Assembly (NCBI RefSeq): GCF_018350175.1
Contig: NC_058376.1
Location: 115,196,001 to 115,260,000, forward strand
DNA length: 64,000 bases
From: Felis catus
Taxonomy: Eukaryota
Direction of reading: 5' to 3'
Shown here: positions 439-53,100 of the stretch, in pieces
Layout: each line of letters begins with the position of its first letter
Numbering within the stretch: the first letter of the stretch is position 1
Program-made: the position numbers and the translations under genes
Notes under the pieces: generated by a model
The model's input: the letters and a program-made list of their open reading frames with translations, nothing else
What the model was told of the DNA's origin: nothing
The model's database searches: none

Positions 439-3400
439 ATGGCACTAAATTCATATCTTTCAGTACTCACTGTAAATGTCAATGGGCTAAACACTCCAAT
501 CAAAAGACATAGTGTATCAGAATGGATAAGGAAACAAAATCCATCTATATGCTGTTTACAAGAGACCCATTTTAGACCTAAAGACACCTTCAGGTTGAAA
601 GTAAGGGGATGGAGAACCATCTATCATGCTAATGGTCACCAAAAGAAAGCAGGAGTAGCCATACTTACATCAGACAATGTAGATTTTAAAATAAAGATGT
701 AACAAGAGATGAAGGACATTTATCATAATTAAGGGGTCTCTTCACCATGAAGATCTAACCGTTATAGACATTTATGCCCCCAAACATATAAATCAATCAC
801 AAACATAAACTCATTGATAATAATGCCATAATAGTAGGGGACTTCAACACTCCACTTACAACAAGGGACAGATCATCTAAGTAGAAAACCAACAAGGAAC
901 CAATGGCTTTGAATGAAACTCTGGACCAGATGGACTTAACAGATATATTCAGAACATTTCATCCTAAAGCAGCAGAATAAATATTCTTCTAGAGTGCACA
1001 TGGAGCATTCTCCAGAATAGATCACATACTGGGACACAAATCAGCCCTTAACAAGTATGAAAAGATCAAGATCATACCATGCAATTTTCAGACCACAATG
1101 CTATGAAACTTGAAATCAACCACAAGAAAAAATTTGGAAAGACCATGAATAATTGGAGATTAAAGAACATCCTACTAAGGAATGAATGGGTTAACCAGAA
1201 ATTAAAGAGGAAATGAAAAAGTACATGGAAGCCAATGAAAATGAAAGCACAGCAGCCCCAAACTTCTGGGATGCAGCAAAGGCTGTCATAAGAGGGAAAT
1301 ATATAGCAATCCAGGCCTTCCTAAAGAAGGAAGAAAGGTCTCCGATACATAACCTACAAAAAATCAATGATATTGAAATCAAAAAACAGTAGAACAGATC
1401 AATGAAACCAAGAGCTGGTTCTTTTTTTTTTTTTCAACGTTTATTTATTTTTGGGACAGAGAGAGAGAGACAGAGCATGAATGGGGGAGGGGCAGAGAGA
1501 GAGGGAGACACAGAATCGGAAACAGGCTCCAGGCTCTGAGCCATCAGCCCAGAGCCTGACGCGGGGCTCGAACTCACAGACCGCGAGATCATGACCTGGC
1601 TGAAGTCGGACGCTTAACCGACTGCACCACCCAGGCGCCCCAAGAGCTGGTTCTTTGAAAGAATTAACAAAATTGATAAACCCCTAGCCAGATTGATCAA
1701 AAATAAAAGGAAAGGACCCAAATAAATAAGATAAATAATGAAAGAGGAGAGATAACAACCAACACTGCAGAAATATAAACAATAATAAAAGAATATTATG
1801 AGCAATTATATGCCAATAAATTGGGCAATTTGGAAGAAATGGACAGATTCTTAGAAACATATAAACTATCAAAACTGAAAGAGGAAGAAATAAAAAATTT
1901 GAACAGACCCATAACCAGTAAAGAAATTAAATAAGTAACAAAAAATCTCCCAAAAAACATGAGTCCACGGCTGGATGGCTTCCCAGGGGAATTCTACCAA
2001 ACTTTTAAAGAAGAGTTAACACCTATTCTTTTGAATCTTCTCCAAAAAATAGAAATGGAAGGAAAACTTCTAAACTCATTCTACAAGGCCAGCATTACCT
2101 TGATTCTAAAACCAGAGACCCCACTAAAAAGGGGAACTACAGACCAATTTCCCTGATGAACATGGATGCAAAAATTCTCAACAAAATACTAGCCAATTGG
2201 ATCCAACAATACATTAAAAGAATTATTCACCACAAACAAGTGGGGTTTATACCTGGGATGCAGNNNNNNNNNNNNNNNNNNNNNNNNNNNNNNNNNNNNN
2301 NNNNNNNNNNNNNNNNNNNNNNNNNNNNNNNNNNNNNNNNNNNNNNNNNNNNNNNNNNNNNNNNNNNNNNNNNNNNNNNNNNNNNNNNNNNNNNNCCCTC
2401 AAGAAAGTAGGGATAGAAGGATCATACCTCAAGATCATAAAGGGCATATATGAAAGACCCACCCCTAATATCATCCTCAATGGGGAAAAACTGAGAGCTT
2501 TTTCCCTAAGGTCAGGAACACAACAAGGATGTCCACTCTCAACACTGTTATTCAACATAGTGTTGGAAGTCCTAGCCTCCTCAATCAGATAACACAAAGA
2601 AATAAAAGGCATCCAAATTGGCCAGGAGGAAGTCAAACTGTCACTCTTCACAGACGACATGATACTCTATGTGGAAAACCCAAAAGATTCCACAAAAAAA
2701 CTTCTAGAACAGATCTGTGAATTCAGCAAAGTCACAGGATATAAAATCAATGTACCGAAATCGGTTGCATTTCTATATACCAATAATGAAGCAGCAGAAA
2801 GAGAAATTAAGGAATGTATCCCATTTACAANNNNNNNNNNNNNNNNNNNNNNNNNNNNNNNNNNNNNNNNNNNNNNNNNNNNNNNNNNNNNNNNNNNNNN
2901 NNNNNNNNNNNNNNNNNNNNNNNNNNNNNNNNNNNNNNNNNNNNNNNNNNNNNNNNNNNNNNNNNNNNNNNNNNNNNNNNNNNNNNNNNNNNNNNNNNNN
3001 NNNNNNNNNNNNNNNNNNNNNNNNNNNNNNNNNNNNNNNNNNNNNNNNNNNNNNNNNNNNNNNNCAGAGCTAGAACAAACAATTCTAAAATTTGTATGGA
3101 ACCAGAAAAGACCCCAAATAGCCAAAGCAATCCTGAAAAAGAAACCAAAGCTTGAGGTATCACAATTCCTTACTTCAAGCTGTATTACAAAGCTGTAATC
3201 ATCAAGACATTTGGTATGGCACAAAAACAGACACATAGATTAATGGAACAGAATAGAGAACCAAGGGACTCACAAACATATGGCCAGCTAATCTTTGACA
3301 AAGCAGGAAGGAATATCCTATGGAATAAAGTAAATGGTGCTGGGAAAGCTGGACAGCGACATGCAGAAGAATGAACCTGGACCACTTTCTTACACTATAC

Positions 3401-4340
3401 ACAAAAATAAACTCAAAATAGATGAAAGACCTAAACGTAAGACAGGAAGCCATCAAAATCCCAGAGGGGAGTGCAGACAAAAACCTCTTTGACCTCAGTC
3501 GCAGCAACTGCCTTACCAGAGACAAGGGAAACAAAAGCAAAAATGAACTATTGGGACCTCATCAAGATAAAAAGCTTCTGCACAGCGAAGGAAACAATCA
3601 GCAACACTAAAAGGCAATTGATGGAATGGGAGAAGATATTTGCAAATGACACATCAGATAAAGGGTTAGTATCCAAAATCTATAAAGAACTTAACAAACT
3701 CAACACCCAAAAAACAAATAATCCAGTGAAGGAATGGACAAAAGACATGAATAGAGACTTTTCTAAAGAAGACATCCAGATGGCTAACAGACACATGAAA
3801 AGAAGCTCAACATTGCTCATCATCAGGGAAATACAAATCAAAACCACAATGAGGTACTACCACACATCTGTCAGAATGGTTAAAATGAACAACTTAAGCA
3901 ACAACAGATGTTGGAGAGGATGCAGAGAAAGAAGAACCCCTTTGCACTGCTGGCGGGAATGCAAACTGGTGCAGCCACTCCAGAAAACAATATGGAGGTT
4001 CCTCAAAAAATTAAAAATAGACCCAGATATTGCACTACTAGGTATTTATCTAAAGGATACTGGCTGGTCCTTTAGCACTGGTGTGCTATTTCGAAGGGGC
4101 ACATGCACCCTGATGTTTATAGCACCAGTATCAACAATAGCCAAAGTATGAAAAGAGCCCAAATGCCCATCTACTAATGAATGGGTAAAGAAGATGTGGT
4201 ATTTTTATATACAGTGGAATATTACTTGGCAATGAAAAATGAAATCTTGCCATTTGCAACAATGTGGATGGAACTAGAATGTATTATGCTAAGTGAAATT
4301 CATCAGTCAGAGAAAGACAAATATCATATGACTTTACTCA
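439..4340 (+). pseudogene. Inactivated L1 ORF2 (endonuclease/reverse transcriptase)
   Basis: ORF-track fragments 409-702, 1959-2156, 2156-2410, 2659-3198 and 3471-4151 are consecutive ORF2 pieces in different frames. Confidence 0.93.
1425..1641 (-). mobile_element. Young Can-SINE (SINEC_Fc) inserted in L1 ORF2
   Basis: Reverse complement of GGGGCGCCTGGGTGG...; (CT)n tract and poly(A); 15-bp TSD aagagctggttcttt at 1410-1424 and 1642-1656. Confidence 0.97.
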
Positions 4341-6335: not shown

Positions 6336-7356
6336 TCATTCTCTGTCTTTCCATGTACATAAATCAACATACGTATACATACTTCTATATTTACTTCCCA
6401 AATTGTCTATATTGACACCAAAGAGTTTCACTGATACCTTCATTTTCAATACATTTTATTTTATTCTCTTTCCGCATTTGCCACTACATTCTCCAACAGT
6501 GAGGAAACGGACTCCCATTATCCTCAATATATTTATTTATTGCACCAGTCTTACCTGTATGTAGCCCATTTCTCATTGTAACTGTGCTCTCCACTCAGTG
6601 ACCTTTCACAGACACCCATTTGCTCAGCTGCACTGACTTTTGAACTGAAACATTAGCACTTAAAAAAATTACATTCATCATATATTTTTATTCCTAGAAT
6701 CTCTTTTAAAAAAATCTCTTAAAAAATCTGTGTGTGTGTGCATTTAGTTTATTTAAAGAAGGGATTCTTGGGAATGGGTGTGGGGGCACTGGGGAGACCA
6801 ACAGGCAGAATGGGCAAGCCAATCAGAATGAATCATCTGTTTTTGACAGTTTCTATTGTTTTCTCTATTTCTTTGATCATTTGAAACTTACTTTCATATT
6901 GATTTGCAAGTTTATTATGGACTATTGTCATCTGTTCTTAGGGTTCAGATTATCCCATTAGTTGCATCTACCCATTCTGCTTCAGCGTAGCTCATTTCTG
7001 TTTAGGGCTTATCATTTTTACTGTCAGCAGTTCTTTAATACATTTTGTTCACACAGAAGTCCTAGTGTCCTGGGTTGTGGACTTGTTCCTGTGGAGTCAT
7101 TCCTATGGAATGATTTTGTATTTGTCTCTTCCAAGAATTTATGAGTTTTACAGGTTGGGACAAAGTATTCTAGTTATTTCTCATATTGGGATTTCCATAC
7201 CCTGAGAATATGACCCTCATACCCATGAGTGACACAGCTTTGGTGTTCTGCTTTCCTGCCAGTGGTTCCTTTTCACCCTTATTCTACATGCATGACAAAC
7301 TTCCTTATAGCTCTCTGAGGCTGGCAGGCAGAACTTGTAGAATAGAAAGCACAGCT

Positions 7357-36786: not shown

Positions 36787-37960
<1,174 letters not shown>

Positions 37961-38852
37961 AGAACTTTCAGTTATAAACAAATAGTTTTATTTTTCAATC
38001 ATAAATACAGTAACTCCACTTTAGTCTTAGGAAAAAAAACAGATCATATTTTCTGGAGAAAAACTGAACCGAGAAAGGGTAGGATTACACATTTAAATTA
38101 ATTCTTAGAACATATCGCTTTTCTAGAAAGTAATAAATATCCTCCAGGTAAACAGAAATGGGGGTGCTATGTGAATAAACTTATCTAGGTTCTTTGCATT
38201 TTTTCTAGAAGTAAATCCCAGCTTCCACATTGATTAAAAAAGCATAGTCTAAATCTCAGAAAATGCTACTGAATTAAATTAGTTATTCAGGAAGACTTGA
38301 GTTTTTCCAGAAGCTTCTGCAAATATTTGCTTCAATATTTTACATAGTCAGTAAACAAGCTATTCACTTACATGATTTAGAAAATCAACATACTCTTCCC
38401 TAGCAGAGTCCATCAGAAAACCCTTGGGAGGGAGGCTGAGGATGCTGTGGGGGTAACATCACAGGATGAGGTACAGGCATACTCTGAGGTAAAAAGCTCA
38501 GCGTATGGCATAGGCAAGTCTGTCTGGGCAGGGCGCGAGTGCTGGGTAAAGATCCTCTTGCTACCCCAGGAGCAGGTCCCTAGATGAGCATGGCTGTGCG
38601 TTCTTTTTGTAGCAAAGTGTCCTGGGCAAGATGAGGAACAGGAATAAGACTTCCCAGGATAGCTATGCTTGGCATCCAGGAGAGCTGTATGAACACACAC
38701 ACCTAAGGTAGTGTCCATCTTGGTGTGAAGTGGTGCCGTGAGAGGGATGAGACTCAGGCAGCCAGGTTTTAAGAGAGAACACTAGAAAGAAAAAGTTTCT
38801 TAAGTGGCCTCTTTGCCTTCCCCAAGGAGGTAGTTATTCTCCTCATCCAAGA

Positions 38853-42299: not shown

Positions 42300-42369
42300 T
42301 TACATGCTCCTTTTTTAATGAGTTTGCAATTCTAAGGAAAAAAATACCACATAGTTTCCTATGATAATA
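42300..42369 (+). repeat. Copy 1 of a perfect 70-bp dispersed direct repeat (copy 2 at 44397-44466)
   Basis: ttacatgctccttttttaatgagtttgcaattctaaggaaaaaaataccacatagtttcctatgataata is identical at both sites. Confidence 0.95.
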
Positions 42370-43699: not shown

Positions 43700-43935
43700 T
43701 TTATTTTTAATTATTTTTTCATGTTTACTTATTTTGAGAGAGACAGGCAGAGAGTCAGAGAGAGGGAGAGGGAGAGGGAGGGAGGGAGGGAGGAAGGGGC
43801 AGAATGAGAGGGAGAGAGAGAATCCCAAGCAAGCTCCACGCTGTCAGCACAGAGCCCAATGAGGGGCTGGATCCCATGAACCTGAGCCGAAATCAAGAGT
43901 TGGACGCTTAACCAATTGAGCCACCCAGGTGCCCC
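43700..43935 (-). mobile_element. Can-SINE
   Basis: SINE body with (GGGA)n; TSD tctctatgtt. Confidence 0.93.
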
Positions 43936-44396
43936 TAATCTCTCTATGTTAAATACTTTTCTTGGAGCTGATTTTGCTCACCTGTGCAATTCCTAGGTGA
44001 ATGTTTCTCTTAGCACACACAATATATTTGATTACAATTACTAATGCCACACTAAATAGGTACTCAAGATTCAGTGTCCTTAATGAATGGCTACATGATA
44101 TGTGTAAGTGGTAAACGGTGGTTTCTGGCCCTCTTCCCAAGTCGACAGCATCCACTATGGCCTGCCCTCACAGGAAATGAGAACAGCACAAGCTGCCATC
44201 TTATTTCTACACACACCAATTGTAACCACCTGTGGTGATGGTGGTTAAATGTCCTGTCATCCTCAACTAGCCCTCCCCTTTGCTTTCCAAAATATCCCCC
44301 AAGAATAGGAAGAACTTAGCTTTATGAAAGGAAATTCAGTAGTTTCTTCCAAGTTAGGGTATACATTTCAAGGAAAGTAAATTGTGATCCTAAATT

Positions 44397-44482
44397 TTAC
44401 ATGCTCCTTTTTTAATGAGTTTGCAATTCTAAGGAAAAAAATACCACATAGTTTCCTATGATAATAGAATTATCATAGGAAA
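44397..44482 (+). repeat. Copy 2 of the 70-bp repeat plus a 14-bp perfect inverted repeat
   Basis: tttcctatgataat (44452-44465), loop aga, attatcataggaaa (44469-44482). Confidence 0.93.
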
Positions 44483-45446
44483 TAGATAGAGAATAGAATA
44501 GAATTGTTAGAAATTATTCAATACTTTAATATCTAGTAATGTAACACTAAATTACAATTAAATTTCTCTCTGCTTCAGAAGCTTCTACTTATCATAAGTT
44601 ATAGTTTAAGCACCCTACTTGTCATGAATATCCCAAGCCCCCAAAGAGCTCCTTTCATTCCTATGATATTTCTTCCCATTCTTTTCTATTCTAAACTCTT
44701 GGCTGTTTTTGTTGTATGCTTTTTTTTTTTTTTCCAAAAAGAAAAGAGAGGCAGGGATGAGATATATGTCATTAACTCTAATCATATGCTAGAAATCTTC
44801 CTCTGACATATTGGTGTTAGTAGAAAATATTATGTCCAATATAGAGGCCCATTGAAGGCTTTAGTGAGCCTCAAAAGAGCTGTGCTCTGCAGACTAGGAG
44901 AAAAATAAAATAAATATAACTTGGAAAAAAGCTTGTATATAAATAAACTCTTGTCCTCTTATACTCCCAAATTCCTCAAACTTAGGGACTTGGAGAATTT
45001 TCTCAAGGGAATTATAACCACATTTTAAAGAATCAGCATCTCGGCCATTCATCAAAGGGGAGGAAACATAATTTTTAATAATATGGCTCTTGGAGACGGT
45101 TCACAAGCTTTTCTTTTTCAACAGATGAAAAAGGCAGCTTCTATGTGGGCATCTCAGTCAACAGCTGTTTTATATGACTTGTGAGCAAAACCCACAATTT
45201 CATATGTTAAGCCACTGCATATTTGCTTCTCTGAGACTCTAGATCAGCAGCATAAACTGCTTATCTCATTTCAGATTCCACTTTAAGGGGTATGAGGGAA
45301 GTTACTGGGAAGGAGAGGAAGCACCAATTAATTTATATTTTTAAGAAATTATGAAATTTTTATAGAATTTCTATGTGTTATCAGCTTTATGTTAGAAATT
45401 ACTGGCCACATGACAATTCATTTCAGATTAAAGTTTTTAACATTTT

Positions 45447-45615
45447 GGAGCCCCTGGGTGGCTCAGTCAGGTACGTGTCCGACTGTAGCTCAGGTCATGA
45501 TCTCGTGGTTCATGAGTTCGAGCCCCACCTTGGACTCTATCCTGACAGCTCAGAGCCTGGAGCCTGCTTCAGATTCTGTGTCTCTTTCTCTCTGCCCCTC
45601 CCCTGCTCATGCTCG

Positions 45616-45648
<33 letters not shown>

Positions 45649-45679
45649 AAAAATAAACATTGAAAGAGTTTTAAAAAAT
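45447..45679 (+). mobile_element. Can-SINE (antisense to AGTR1)
   Basis: SINE body, B-box gagttcgagccc; TSD aaagtttttaacatt. Confidence 0.94.
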
Positions 45680-46274
45680 AAAGTTTTTAACATTATAGAA
45701 ATCGCATAATCATAAATTTTAAGTGAAGCTAGAAGGATCAAATATTCCCTGTATTATACATGTTTCCCCCAATTGCCCAACGTTCAAATTGGTCCTACGC
45801 AATGTATAAGGAGACTAGGGTTCTAATTTTGGTTTTCTTATTCACTAGCAAGGTGACCTTGAACCAGTCACTTAGCTTTTCTACACCTCTGCATTCTCAG
45901 GGAGCTGACACATGGCTAAAGAAATCTCCTGAAACACTGAAATTTTATAATCTTTTTTTTTGGAATAGGTATTTATCTTTTGAAGATAAAGGCAATGATG
46001 GCTTGACAAGTAGAAATGACCTGATAAATCATTAAATCAGCCAAAATCTATCGATTGATATAGATATTATTGATGCCACAATGATTTAATAACATTCTCT
46101 AGTTAGATACAAGAAGTCTTTTTCTTAAAAACGAAATGAATTTTACCTTTTACTGGGGATAAATAAACTCCACATAAGAGTATTATATTACAGTGATATT
46201 CCCCCCCCCCCCCATTTTTTAGATTATCTACTCAAAGAAATGTTTTCCCAGCACAGCATTTGGATAGCTGGTTG

Positions 46275-46311: not shown

Positions 46312-47859
46312 ACTATCTAGACTAGCTAGATTAGTTTCTAGACTGTGAGTCTCTCAGGCATCCCCTGTGTTATTCATTGGCCATTCCACATGAAAAGGTA
46401 GAGACAGATTGTTTCATGGCTGCAAATCAAAATTAGAAGCAGGCCCTGCAGTTAGGGAGTCGGGATTATGTTATTTTATGAAGAAGGTGGCAGAATGTGT
46501 TATTGTTAAAATAACTCCTACAAAACAAACCTACTTTCAGGTAATTTTTTTTTTTTTTTTGGTGGGGAAAATACAACTTTTTAAAGTTTAGTAAATAGTT
46601 AATGTGATTCATTTGCCCAAATAAAAACGCACAGATGAGGACAGAGAATTATAAAAGAACCCACGGTAATATATTATTTAGAATAACATTTTCAAGTATT
46701 TTATTAGTCAATATTTTGAAGTGCTAAGTGGACTTTTGTCCTAAGAAAATGAATTCTGTAAGGTAATGTTTGATTTTATCATAGAGTTACTTTTTGTTTT
46801 TTGAAACACAGTTTCATATGCTTCATTTTGTTTTAAACATTAAAATGTTATAAAAACTGAGAGCAGAATAGTCTGGCAGAGAAAGCACTGGACTAGAGTC
46901 CGGTCAAAGAGCCTGCTCTGTCACTAACCAGTGACACAATCAGACACAGGTAATTTAATCTCTTACTTTGTTATCTCTTAAATATTACAAAATACTTAGA
47001 ATGGAAATACTAACACTTGTTCTCACCTCTATTTCATAGGTTGTTAAAGGTAAACAGTGAGGTCTTAGGAAAAGATAAAAGCACTTTGAAAATATAAATT
47101 TTATAATATCATTTATGTAATGCAAGGGTAAGTAAAATTTAATGAAAGAAAGCTCAGAACTTCAAAAATAAATAGAATTATTTTCATTCAAAAATTCAGC
47201 AGAAGTATTTTTCATTATTTTCATCTAATGCATTTATTTCAAGCATTATAATGAGGCACTTGATGAATGTGGAAAGAAAGGTAAAATGGTAGATCTTGCA
47301 TGGCTTCCACAGTTAATACTTGCGGCAACAAATGTTTAGGTACAAAGTGGAGCCCTAAGGTTAAATCTGACCAACACATATATTTTCCTTGGCCCCCAAA
47401 AACTCTATAATATATCTTCTGGAATTCGAATTTTCTGTCGTTTACTAACCGCTGCCACTCTCTATTTTCTGATTCTGTTGGTCAGTGCTGTCTAAAAGAA
47501 ACTTAATGTGAACCACATACATAATTAAAAATTTCCTAGTAGCCACACTAAAAAAGTCAAATTAAACTCCTAAATAGTAGACTCCTGAAATACAGCTTGG
47601 GAATTATTCATTAGACTGTGTATTTCTTTCAAACATTCAGGACTGGTATAGTTAAGGGGTGCCCAACAGGATGTTATCTAGTAAAATACTCCTTGCGCTC
47701 ACTCATAAATGTCTAGAATTTCTTTAACTGGGATTGGGTTGGCAATACCCACTTCCATGCCTCCAAGATCTACCTGAGGAAGGAGATACACTGACTCAGA
47801 TGAAAGCCAGACTAGCAGTAGAAGGGCATGGTGATGGTAACCAAAAAATCTGAAGCAGT

Positions 47860-48090
47860 ATGTGATTTACCTCTTCTGACCTATGGGGTCTCTTGCTTTT
47901 CTCTTAACCTGTGACTCGTTTTCTTCATCTGGAAAATTATAATAATAATAATGAAGTTAATGATAATGATGAAGTAAAAAAATATCTGTCTTGTCAGGCT
48001 CACAACGTTGTTGGGAACATGATGAGGTGATACATGTGGAGATATCATAAGATCCTGTAGATTTGAGACTTTTGTTAGTGTTCTTAACTT
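47860..48090 (+). mobile_element. MIR that hosts the exon-3 orthologue
   Basis: 'tgtgactcgttttcttcatctggaaaattataataata...gttgttgggaacatgatgaggtgatacatgt' resembles the MIR core. Confidence 0.65.
47871..47928 (-). other. AGTR1: Orthologue of human AGTR1 alternative 5' exon 3 (58 bp), derived from an antisense MIR
   Basis: ttttccag|ATGAAGAAAACGAGTCACAGG...CAGAAGAG|gtaaat; 58 nt with AG/GT ends; aligns without gaps to the recalled human exon ATGAAGAAAATGAATCACAAG...CAGAGGAG; about 10 kb upstream of the coding exon. Confidence 0.8.
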
Positions 48091-49435
48091 CATACTATGG
48101 TGTAAATGACTAACTTCCCCTGTACCAGCAAATCTGGATAAGGAGAATTGGGAAATTGCACTCAGTGCTGGAAGTGGAAGAAGAGGCTAATGTACCAGAA
48201 AGAGGTAGAGAGGCTCAGAGAGGGAGGCTGATGCACTGACAAGCTACTTGGATTGGACACCTCTGCTAGCTCTAATCGTTCTCTTCAATACCTATATGAT
48301 TTTTAAGTATAAATTTACAATGATACTACAGCACTGATTATAATGAAAAGTTTAGACCATTCTGTCTGCTGTTATATTACCACTCCATTCATTTCTATGT
48401 GGGACTACTTGTGTTTTCTAACGAAACAGCCTGTGGTGAGCGGCACAAATGCTGGGCCAATAAAAGGTAACAACACTTTGCCGATTGAAAACTACGATGA
48501 GATACTGGTGACTGCTGCTTCCTGTGAAAACTTCATTAGCAATAAATGGGTTACCAGATGTCACATGTCAGATTTGAAATTAAAATATATTCCCAGTATT
48601 TTCGGCGGGAAAAAAACGAACTCTTCCCAAGAGAGCTGCATAAGATACTGTACCACTTTTGCCTTTGATTGTTTGTTTCTCCTCTAAATGTAAAACGAAA
48701 GCATCCCTTGGTTTGTAAAGTGGAAATACAGCATTTCTGCATAGAGGGGCTATGTACTGAAGTGGCACATTACCCGTGCAGCAACAACTCTTTAAGGACA
48801 AGGAGAGTATTTTTGAATATTCTCTGCCACACCAAGACCACCATCTCCTCTTGTTTTGCCATAGCAATTTCTCCTTTTCTTGGCTTCCCTTTCATCCAGC
48901 CATTTCTGCTTTTATTACTGACAACAAAACTGTTTAAGTCAGCAGCTGTCAACGTTGACTCCACTCTTCCTGAACCTGCTGTAACAGCAATGCTTCCCCC
49001 CTTCGTGATAGTAAAACTCTCTTCTTGTTCTTCGAGCTAGCTAAGTCACTCTGTTCTGGTCCTCAAAGTTGCAAGCCTCCAATCCGAAATCAACTGTGGT
49101 TAGGGAGGGAACCCCACAATTGGAAATAGGACAGCACAATTGCACTTGAACCAGCAGAAATTTCAAATGCTAAGCCGGTGTGACAGAAGTATCTAACACC
49201 CTCTAGTTTTTATAAACAAGTATTTTTGGCTAAAGAGGGTCCATGTTCCTTTGCAATTTCAAAATCTCCAGTTATTCAGTTCCAGCTGAAGACCATGGAT
49301 GTTTGAAACTATTTATTGTTTTTTTCCCCAATTTATTTTTGTTTTGTCTTCTGTTAGATAGATGAAGCTTATAAATCAAATTAAGAGGGTAAAAGTGAAT
49401 TATCACTCTTAAGCATCTTCTTGGAGAAATATTTA

Positions 49436-52869: not shown

Positions 52870-53100
52870 GCTTTGCAGTCACAAAGTCAGTTAAGATCCT
52901 GGCTTCACCTCTGACTAATCATGTAAATGGTTAAAATACTTACCCTCTTTGAGCCTTAGTCTTCTCATCTTTAAAATGGGATAAAAACTTAGTATATACT
53001 GTTACTGCGAGGATTAAATAAAACATGGTGGGGTGGGGTGGGGTGGAAGATTCCCATATAGTAAACAGTAAATGTTATCTGTTGTTACCATTATTTATAT
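52870..53100 (+). mobile_element. MIR
   Basis: 'ctctttgagccttagtcttctcatctttaaaatgggataa...gaggattaaat'. Confidence 0.75.

What the first reader, a model, noticed from the sequence alone, without database searches (positions are those of the whole stretch)
47871..47928. MIR-derived AGTR1 exon 3 keeps its splice sites but encodes a uORF, not the human long-isoform N-terminus
Seen: a 58-nt minus-strand segment with AG/GT ends that starts with ATG and reads MKKTSHRLREKQETP* (TAG at 47881-47883). Spliced to the 46-nt leader of the coding exon it gives 104 nt, which is out of frame, and the leader has two TAA stops in the AT1R frame. Recalled for human: exon 3 is 58 nt and the leader 47 nt (105 nt, in frame), giving an N-terminally extended AT1R; the second human ATG is ACG here and a human CAG is TAG. 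Inference: the exonised MIR predates the carnivore/primate split, and here inclusion would add a 15-codon uORF that dampens translation. The same ancient exon would then have different functions in the two lineages.
Basis: partly seen in the sequence, partly recalled or inferred. Interest (0 to 1): 0.7.

Follow-up and report, generated by a model that had tools for sequence, protein, structure and literature searches.

The report
Decayed MIR exon in carnivore AGTR1
This 58-base piece of an old repeat in the angiotensin-receptor gene lines up codon for codon with the optional exon that lengthens the receptor in primates, but here a stop codon and a one-base-shorter leader block that extension, and it is likely a drifting leftover rather than a selected control switch.

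Summary
It is the orthologue of the segment encoding residues 1-19 of the primate 394-aa AT1R: best of 65,042 positions for 4 of 4 primate proteins. It lies in an antisense MIR (E 1.8e-7, profile trained without the locus).

The functional reading is weak. AG|ATG belongs to the MIR consensus: 38 of 148 other copies keep it, and 26 of those 38 stop within 19 codons, so a short ORF is the default. The exon body is at most 72-75% identical to primates, a neutral-like distance, whereas AT1R codons 1-19 need no change. The acceptor is mediocre and the predicted start context weak. The two TAAs follow from a single 1-nt deletion.

Best reading: an ancestrally in-frame MIR cassette, disabled and drifting in this lineage. 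Splicing here was not tested, so a used uORF exon stays open. The scan noted similar MIR exons in other genes, not in AGTR1.

The parts
47871..47928 (-). 58-nt segment orthologous to the primate AGTR1 cassette that encodes residues 1-19 of the 394-aa form
   Evidence: 14-16 minimum base differences of 57, rank 1 of 65,042 positions for 4 of 4 primate proteins
47881..47928 (-). 15-codon ORF plus TAG; would be a uORF ending 10 nt before the splice junction and 56 nt before the AT1R ATG
47822..47950 (-). MIR-family SINE remnant, antisense to the gene, 61% identical to a genome-derived consensus; supplies AG|ATG
   Evidence: 18.7 bits, E 1.8e-7 in 700 nt; E 3.3e-4 in 1.304 Mb
47929..47968 (-). candidate acceptor: CAG, 11 of 16 pyrimidines, TAT-repeat-rich, branch-like motif 32 nt upstream, no other AG within 58 nt
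47865..47873 (-). candidate donor GAG|GTAAAT, 7 of 9 consensus positions; likely the MIR's own major donor (alignment here is ambiguous)
37876..37921 (-). 46-nt leader of the coding exon; one base shorter than the primate leader, best gap between 37892 and 37891
   Evidence: single best gap after leader base 30 for 3 of 3 primate proteins; among three tied positions for the 385-aa protein P0004
36787..37875 (-). AT1R coding sequence, 362 aa, 7tm_1
   Evidence: (96% identical to the gorilla protein)

Best explanation
The segment is the orthologue of the primate AGTR1 extension exon and lies in an antisense MIR repeat, and in this carnivore it is likely a neutrally drifting relic that is mostly skipped, its 15-codon ORF being a likely by-product of decay rather than a selected brake. 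Shown: the repeat supplies AG|ATG, and the 58-nt length is shared with primates. The leader is 47 nt in primates and in protein P0004 (which clusters with squirrels and rabbit), so the ancestral join was likely 105 nt and in frame. A stop at codon 16 and a 1-nt deletion in the leader each block the extension here; both are inferred to be derived. Inferred: any transcript that includes the segment would gain a short uORF with a weak start (C at -3 if joined to the predicted exon 1, A at +4) ending 56 nt before the AT1R ATG. Leaky scanning and re-initiation would then make the loss of receptor modest.
For: AG|ATG sits at positions 55-59 of a consensus built without the locus, and that consensus frame itself stops after 10 codons. 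Of 148 other copies, 76 keep AG and 38 keep AG+ATG, and 26 of those 38 stop within 19 codons. The exon body needs at least 14-16 changes in 57 nt to give the primate peptides. Simulation puts this at about 0.3-0.6 substitutions per site (P of 14 or more is 0.006 at 0.2 and 0.19 at 0.35), while AT1R codons 1-19 need 0. The acceptor has 11 of 16 pyrimidines, against 14 of 16 for the coding exon and a median of 12 of 16 among AG-bearing MIR copies. 26 segments in 43,149 intronic bases meet the same thresholds, 23 of them with an ATG. Annotated leader lengths vary: 47 (primates, P0004), 46 (here), 44 (meerkat model). The other primate extension (388-aa form) is also broken here. Only 0.06-0.1% of intronic MIRs were found exonised in human and mouse, and exapted ones become highly conserved (PMC2394776, passages).
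Against: The full package (AG, ATG and a donor of at least 7 of 9 at 48-68 nt) occurs in only 5 of 148 other MIR copies, so this copy is unusually exon-ready. It has kept both ends and the exact 58-nt length since the split. The orthologue is annotated as spliced in 4 catarrhine primates, which raises the prior far above the genome-wide MIR rate. A uORF needs only a start and a stop, so a diverged body does not exclude function. MIR retention counts are biased upward because the detecting profile includes those columns. The pseudo-exon thresholds were set at this locus's own values. No RNA evidence either way.
Confidence: 0.6

Rival explanations
1. The segment is a real cassette exon in this lineage, included in some tissues, and its uORF lowers AT1R translation.
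For: Intact AG and GT, a donor at 7 of 9, a branch-like motif and an AG-free zone. The same 58-nt bounds as in primates. Only 5 of 148 other MIR copies are as complete. A 5'-leader ORF of rat AT1a (PEP7) is a precedent in this gene (PMC7949122 and PMC5703645, passages).
Against: Neutral-like divergence, a mediocre acceptor, and a weak predicted start context. The predicted exon 1 already carries its own 10-codon uORF in every transcript. A short ORF is the default for this repeat.
Confidence: 0.28
2. The long AT1R form was a functional isoform in the common ancestor of carnivores and primates and was lost in this lineage.
For: A 47-nt leader in primates and in P0004, and an elephant fragment in frame over its last 8 codons, make the ancestral join 105 nt. 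The MIR consensus has no TAG at the place of codon 16.
Against: The extension changes fast even within primates: 4 of 19 residues differ between gorilla and mandrill, 7 of 19 between gorilla and colobus. No non-primate protein with this N-terminus was among the rows listed (only cluster representatives and at most 15 members per cluster are shown). Leader length also shifts in meerkat.
Confidence: 0.1
3. The match is a chance resemblance between unrelated MIR copies.
For: MIR copies share AG|ATG and the first few codons by descent.
Against: Rank 1 of 65,042 positions, a range that includes other same-strand MIR copies. The match is gapless over 19 codons and ends one base before a GT donor, exactly as the primate frame requires.
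Confidence: 0.02

Closest known systems
Primate AGTR1 extension exon ('exon 3') and the 394-aa AT1R form (UniRef100_A0A2I2ZC48 gorilla; XP_003256286.1 gibbon; XP_011828189.1 mandrill; XP_011814305.1 colobus). The label 'exon 3' and the human long-isoform studies are recalled; those papers were not held.
   Same: Collinear 19 codons plus one base, ATG at the first base, same host gene and strand.
   Different: Here codon 16 is a stop, the leader is 46 nt, the ape-type second start (residue 4) is ACG, and splicing is unproven.
Exonised antisense MIR elements (Sela et al. 2007, PMC2394776; passages read)
   Same: Antisense orientation, 5' UTR position, splice signals from the repeat; the paper describes one major MIR donor.
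   Different: Its exapted example (DMWD) is highly conserved across mammals; this segment is not. AGTR1 does not occur in the main text or in the one supplement held.
PEP7 uORF in the rat AT1a 5' leader (as cited in PMC7949122 and PMC5703645; passages only, primary paper not held)
   Same: Short ORF in an AT1 receptor leader.
   Different: PEP7 has 7 residues with reported signalling activity and is listed as conserved across mammals. Nothing tested links it to this segment.

Membership tests
MIR SINE | Similarity to a dispersed, old repeat family carrying the MIR core motif | tested here: met
   Profile from 125 copies, seeded on a recalled 20-nt core motif and trained without the locus, hits 47950-47822 at E 1.8e-7. 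The name MIR rests on that recalled motif; no Dfam or RepeatMasker library was available.
MIR SINE | tRNA-type internal promoter box on the element's sense strand | tested here: inconclusive
   A B-box-like 11-mer is in the family consensus on the strand opposite the gene. In this copy the matching stretch is decayed.
MIR SINE | Subfamily assignment (MIR, MIRb, MIRc, MIR3) | not testable with these tools
   No repeat library.
Orthologue of the primate AGTR1 extension exon | Collinear sequence at the matching place in the gene | tested here: met
   at codon level against four primate proteins; 9,950 nt upstream of the coding exon.
Orthologue of the primate AGTR1 extension exon | Open frame continuous with AT1R | tested here: not met
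   TAG at codon 16 and 104 nt.
Exonised MIR (spliced in this species) | Canonical AG/GT ends supplied by the repeat | tested here: met
   donor origin likely, not certain.
Exonised MIR (spliced in this species) | Inclusion in mRNA | not tested
   No reads were laid on the junction.
Exonised MIR (spliced in this species) | Conservation above neutral after exaptation | tested here: not met
   At most 72-75% identity to primates; indirect, from proteins, with a recalled neutral distance of about 0.3-0.4.
Regulatory uORF | AUG-to-stop frame ending upstream of the main start | tested here: met
   15 codons, 56-nt gap, in the predicted join.
Regulatory uORF | Ribosome initiation and effect on main-ORF output | not testable with these tools
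   Needs Ribo-seq or reporters; predicted context is weak (Kozak rule recalled).

The most novel reading that the evidence does not exclude
One MIR-derived AGTR1 cassette has been spliced since the common ancestor of carnivores and primates and flips, through single-base changes in the exon and in the 44-47-nt leader, between an N-terminal receptor extension and a repressive uORF. In felids it would be a tissue-regulated brake on angiotensin receptor level.
Probability: 0.12. Interest if true: 0.5.

Novelty: new member of a known kind. Interest (0 to 1): 0.2.

Why it matters
If the relic reading holds, the value is modest. It dates the MIR and its exon bounds to before the carnivore/primate split, shows that this carnivore cannot make the primate long AT1R, and warns that intact splice sites plus a uORF in an antisense MIR are expected by default. 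If the exon is used, it would be a neat case of one repeat-born exon switching between protein extension and translational control in a major blood-pressure drug target.

Tried and rejected
Expression: the run search listed 24 runs, all contig-only, with no RNA holder listed. No reads were laid, so inclusion is untested.

Exon 2: not located. The 388-aa primate N-terminus, first used as a probe for it, maps instead to 38504-38463. A donor-bearing site at L002 8163-8124 scored 11 against 9 for that place and was dropped as likely chance.

First MIR profile: 29 copies; missed the locus. The 125-copy profile found it.

Amino-acid scoring alone: ranked the segment 1, 2, 8 and 52 of 203,085 for the four primates, weaker than the codon-distance test.

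Other searches: residues 1-42 of the gorilla protein returned only itself. Rfam gave nothing real in 47000-49000 (one hit at E 0.74). AGTR1 is absent from the 6 supplements of PMC10032668. PMC2949081 has no exon description.

Literature: ten searches listed no paper on this exon in any species by title or abstract. Eight recalled papers (nine look-ups) were not held, among them the human long-isoform study and the MIR surveys. A prior report of the MIR origin cannot be excluded; most of Sela 2007's additional files were not seen.

Rejected: the two TAAs as independent lesions; splice-site retention as evidence of selection.

Full report
Observation. On the minus strand, 47928-47871 is 58 nt, follows AG, begins with ATG and is followed by GTAAAT. 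It encodes MKKTSHRLREKQETP and a TAG at 47883-47881. The AGTR1 coding exon begins at 37921 and its ATG is at 37875. The 362-aa product is 96% identical to gorilla AT1R. The leader is 46 nt, the join 104 nt, and the leader has two TAA in the AT1R frame. The genome is a feliform carnivore by inference: the leader fits the meerkat model with one difference after a 2-nt gap, and an earlier scan note calls it cat.

Orthology. Four catarrhine 394-aa AT1R entries carry 35 extra residues. For each I counted the fewest base changes that turn 19 consecutive codons into residues 1-19, at every minus-strand position from 38,000 to 104,000 (window plus 40 kb fetched). The segment ranked first of 65,042 in 4 of 4, with 14-16 changes against a background near 32-33 (SD 3). 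The 19 codons end one base before the GT. The rest of the extension matches the leader once a single base is allowed missing after leader base 30. No human DNA was aligned; the exon number and the human functional work are recalled.

Two lesions, not four. Residue 16 is Q in all four primates and TAG here. The leader deletion shifts the frame. The two TAAs lie upstream of it, where the AT1R frame is no longer the primate frame, and the deletion also creates a stop in the exon's own frame. The second start (residue 4) is M in gorilla and gibbon, V in mandrill and colobus, and ACG here, so it may be an ape gain rather than a carnivore loss. The leader is 47 nt in primates and in P0004, and the elephant fragment is in frame over 8 codons, which makes 105 nt the likely ancestral join. 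The meerkat model implies 44 nt, though such models are automated.

MIR origin. A recalled 20-nt core motif found 3 copies in the window against 0.01 expected. From two of them I built a profile over 1.304 Mb of the same contig with the locus held out. With 125 copies it hit 47950-47822 at E 1.8e-7; a first 29-copy profile had missed it. The consensus has AG at 55-56, ATG at 57, a frame that stops after 10 codons, and a B-box-like motif on the other strand. Sela et al. 2007 (PMC2394776, passages) report an antisense bias and one major MIR donor. 19 of 94 copies have a donor like it at about this place, so the donor is likely the repeat's too.

Is retention informative? Of 176 hits, 149 span the acceptor. 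Among the 148 others, 76 keep AG, 38 keep AG+ATG and 59 have AG plus some GT 48-68 nt on. Only 5 have AG, ATG and a donor of at least 7 of 9 in that range. But that state was inherited from an ancestor shared with primates. Keeping 4 bases since then has P 0.37-0.67, and keeping 7 bases P 0.17-0.50, for assumed branches of 0.10-0.25. Of the 38 AG|ATG copies, 26 stop within 19 codons. A second antisense copy 5 kb upstream on the same strand (52968-52909) has AG|ATG, 17 codons and a weaker GT donor. The counts are biased upward by the detecting profile.

Constraint. The 14-16 changes cap identity at 72-75%. Simulation gives a mean of 7.3 at 0.2 substitutions per site, 11.1 at 0.35 and 14.1 at 0.5. 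AT1R codons 1-19 need none. The neutral primate-carnivore distance of about 0.3-0.4 is recalled. Within primates 4-7 of 19 residues differ between gorilla and Old World monkeys. Exapted MIR exons such as DMWD's are described as highly conserved. A uORF could tolerate such drift, so this lowers but does not exclude function.

If included. A CpG island, TATA box and strong donor mark a predicted exon 1 in L003 (donor after base 7071). Joined to it, the ATG has C at -3 and A at +4, a weak context by the recalled Kozak rule. The ORF ends 56 nt before the main ATG and 10 nt before the last junction, so re-initiation is plausible and junction-triggered decay is not expected (recalled rules). The predicted exon 1 already holds a 10-codon uORF. 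The acceptor has 11 of 16 pyrimidines against 14 of 16 for the coding exon. 26 segments in 43,149 intronic bases score as well by thresholds set at this locus's values. Inclusion itself was not tested.

Comparison and novelty. It works like, and is the orthologue of, the primate extension exon, but fails the open-frame test. As an exonised MIR in this species it is unproven. Leader ORFs in AT1 receptor genes are known (rat PEP7; passages in PMC7949122 and PMC5703645). Ten searches listed no paper on this exon, but the main recalled papers were not held, so novelty of the MIR link is not claimed. Scan look-ups found nothing at this place or by sequence. By words they found MIR exon cases in NUMB, CREM and CAB39L and unrelated exon cases.

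Verdict. A real, correctly described orthologous segment. Relic 0.60, used uORF exon 0.28, lost functional long isoform 0.10, chance 0.02. Interest 0.2.

Noticed in passing
window 36787-36798 (-): AT1R runs 3 residues (SHT) past the end seen in 5 of 5 mammals compared; TCA stands where they stop. The 362-aa protein is in the public collection on 8 contigs.
   Followed up: partly
window 38463-38504 (-): Orthologue of the N-terminus of the primate 388-aa AT1R form. Here it starts with ACG, has 2 extra bases and a weak GT donor, so this second extension is also disabled; a meerkat model has it open.
   Followed up: partly
L003 7165-7197 (-): 10-codon uORF inside the predicted exon 1 (TATA box near 7311, donor after 7071), with G at +4; would be in every transcript.
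   Followed up: partly
window 52909-52968 (-): Second antisense MIR upstream of the finding with AG|ATG, a 17-codon ORF and GT donors; a natural control.
   Followed up: partly
window 42300-42369 and 44397-44466: Perfect 70-nt direct repeat 2,097 nt apart with unrelated flanks; recent local duplication or assembly quirk.
   Followed up: no
window 2659-4151 (+): ORF fragments resembling LINE-1 ORF2 (label from recall).
   Followed up: no
window 43700-43938 and 45444-45682: Two oppositely oriented copies of a likely carnivore SINE in the last intron (label from recall).
   Followed up: no
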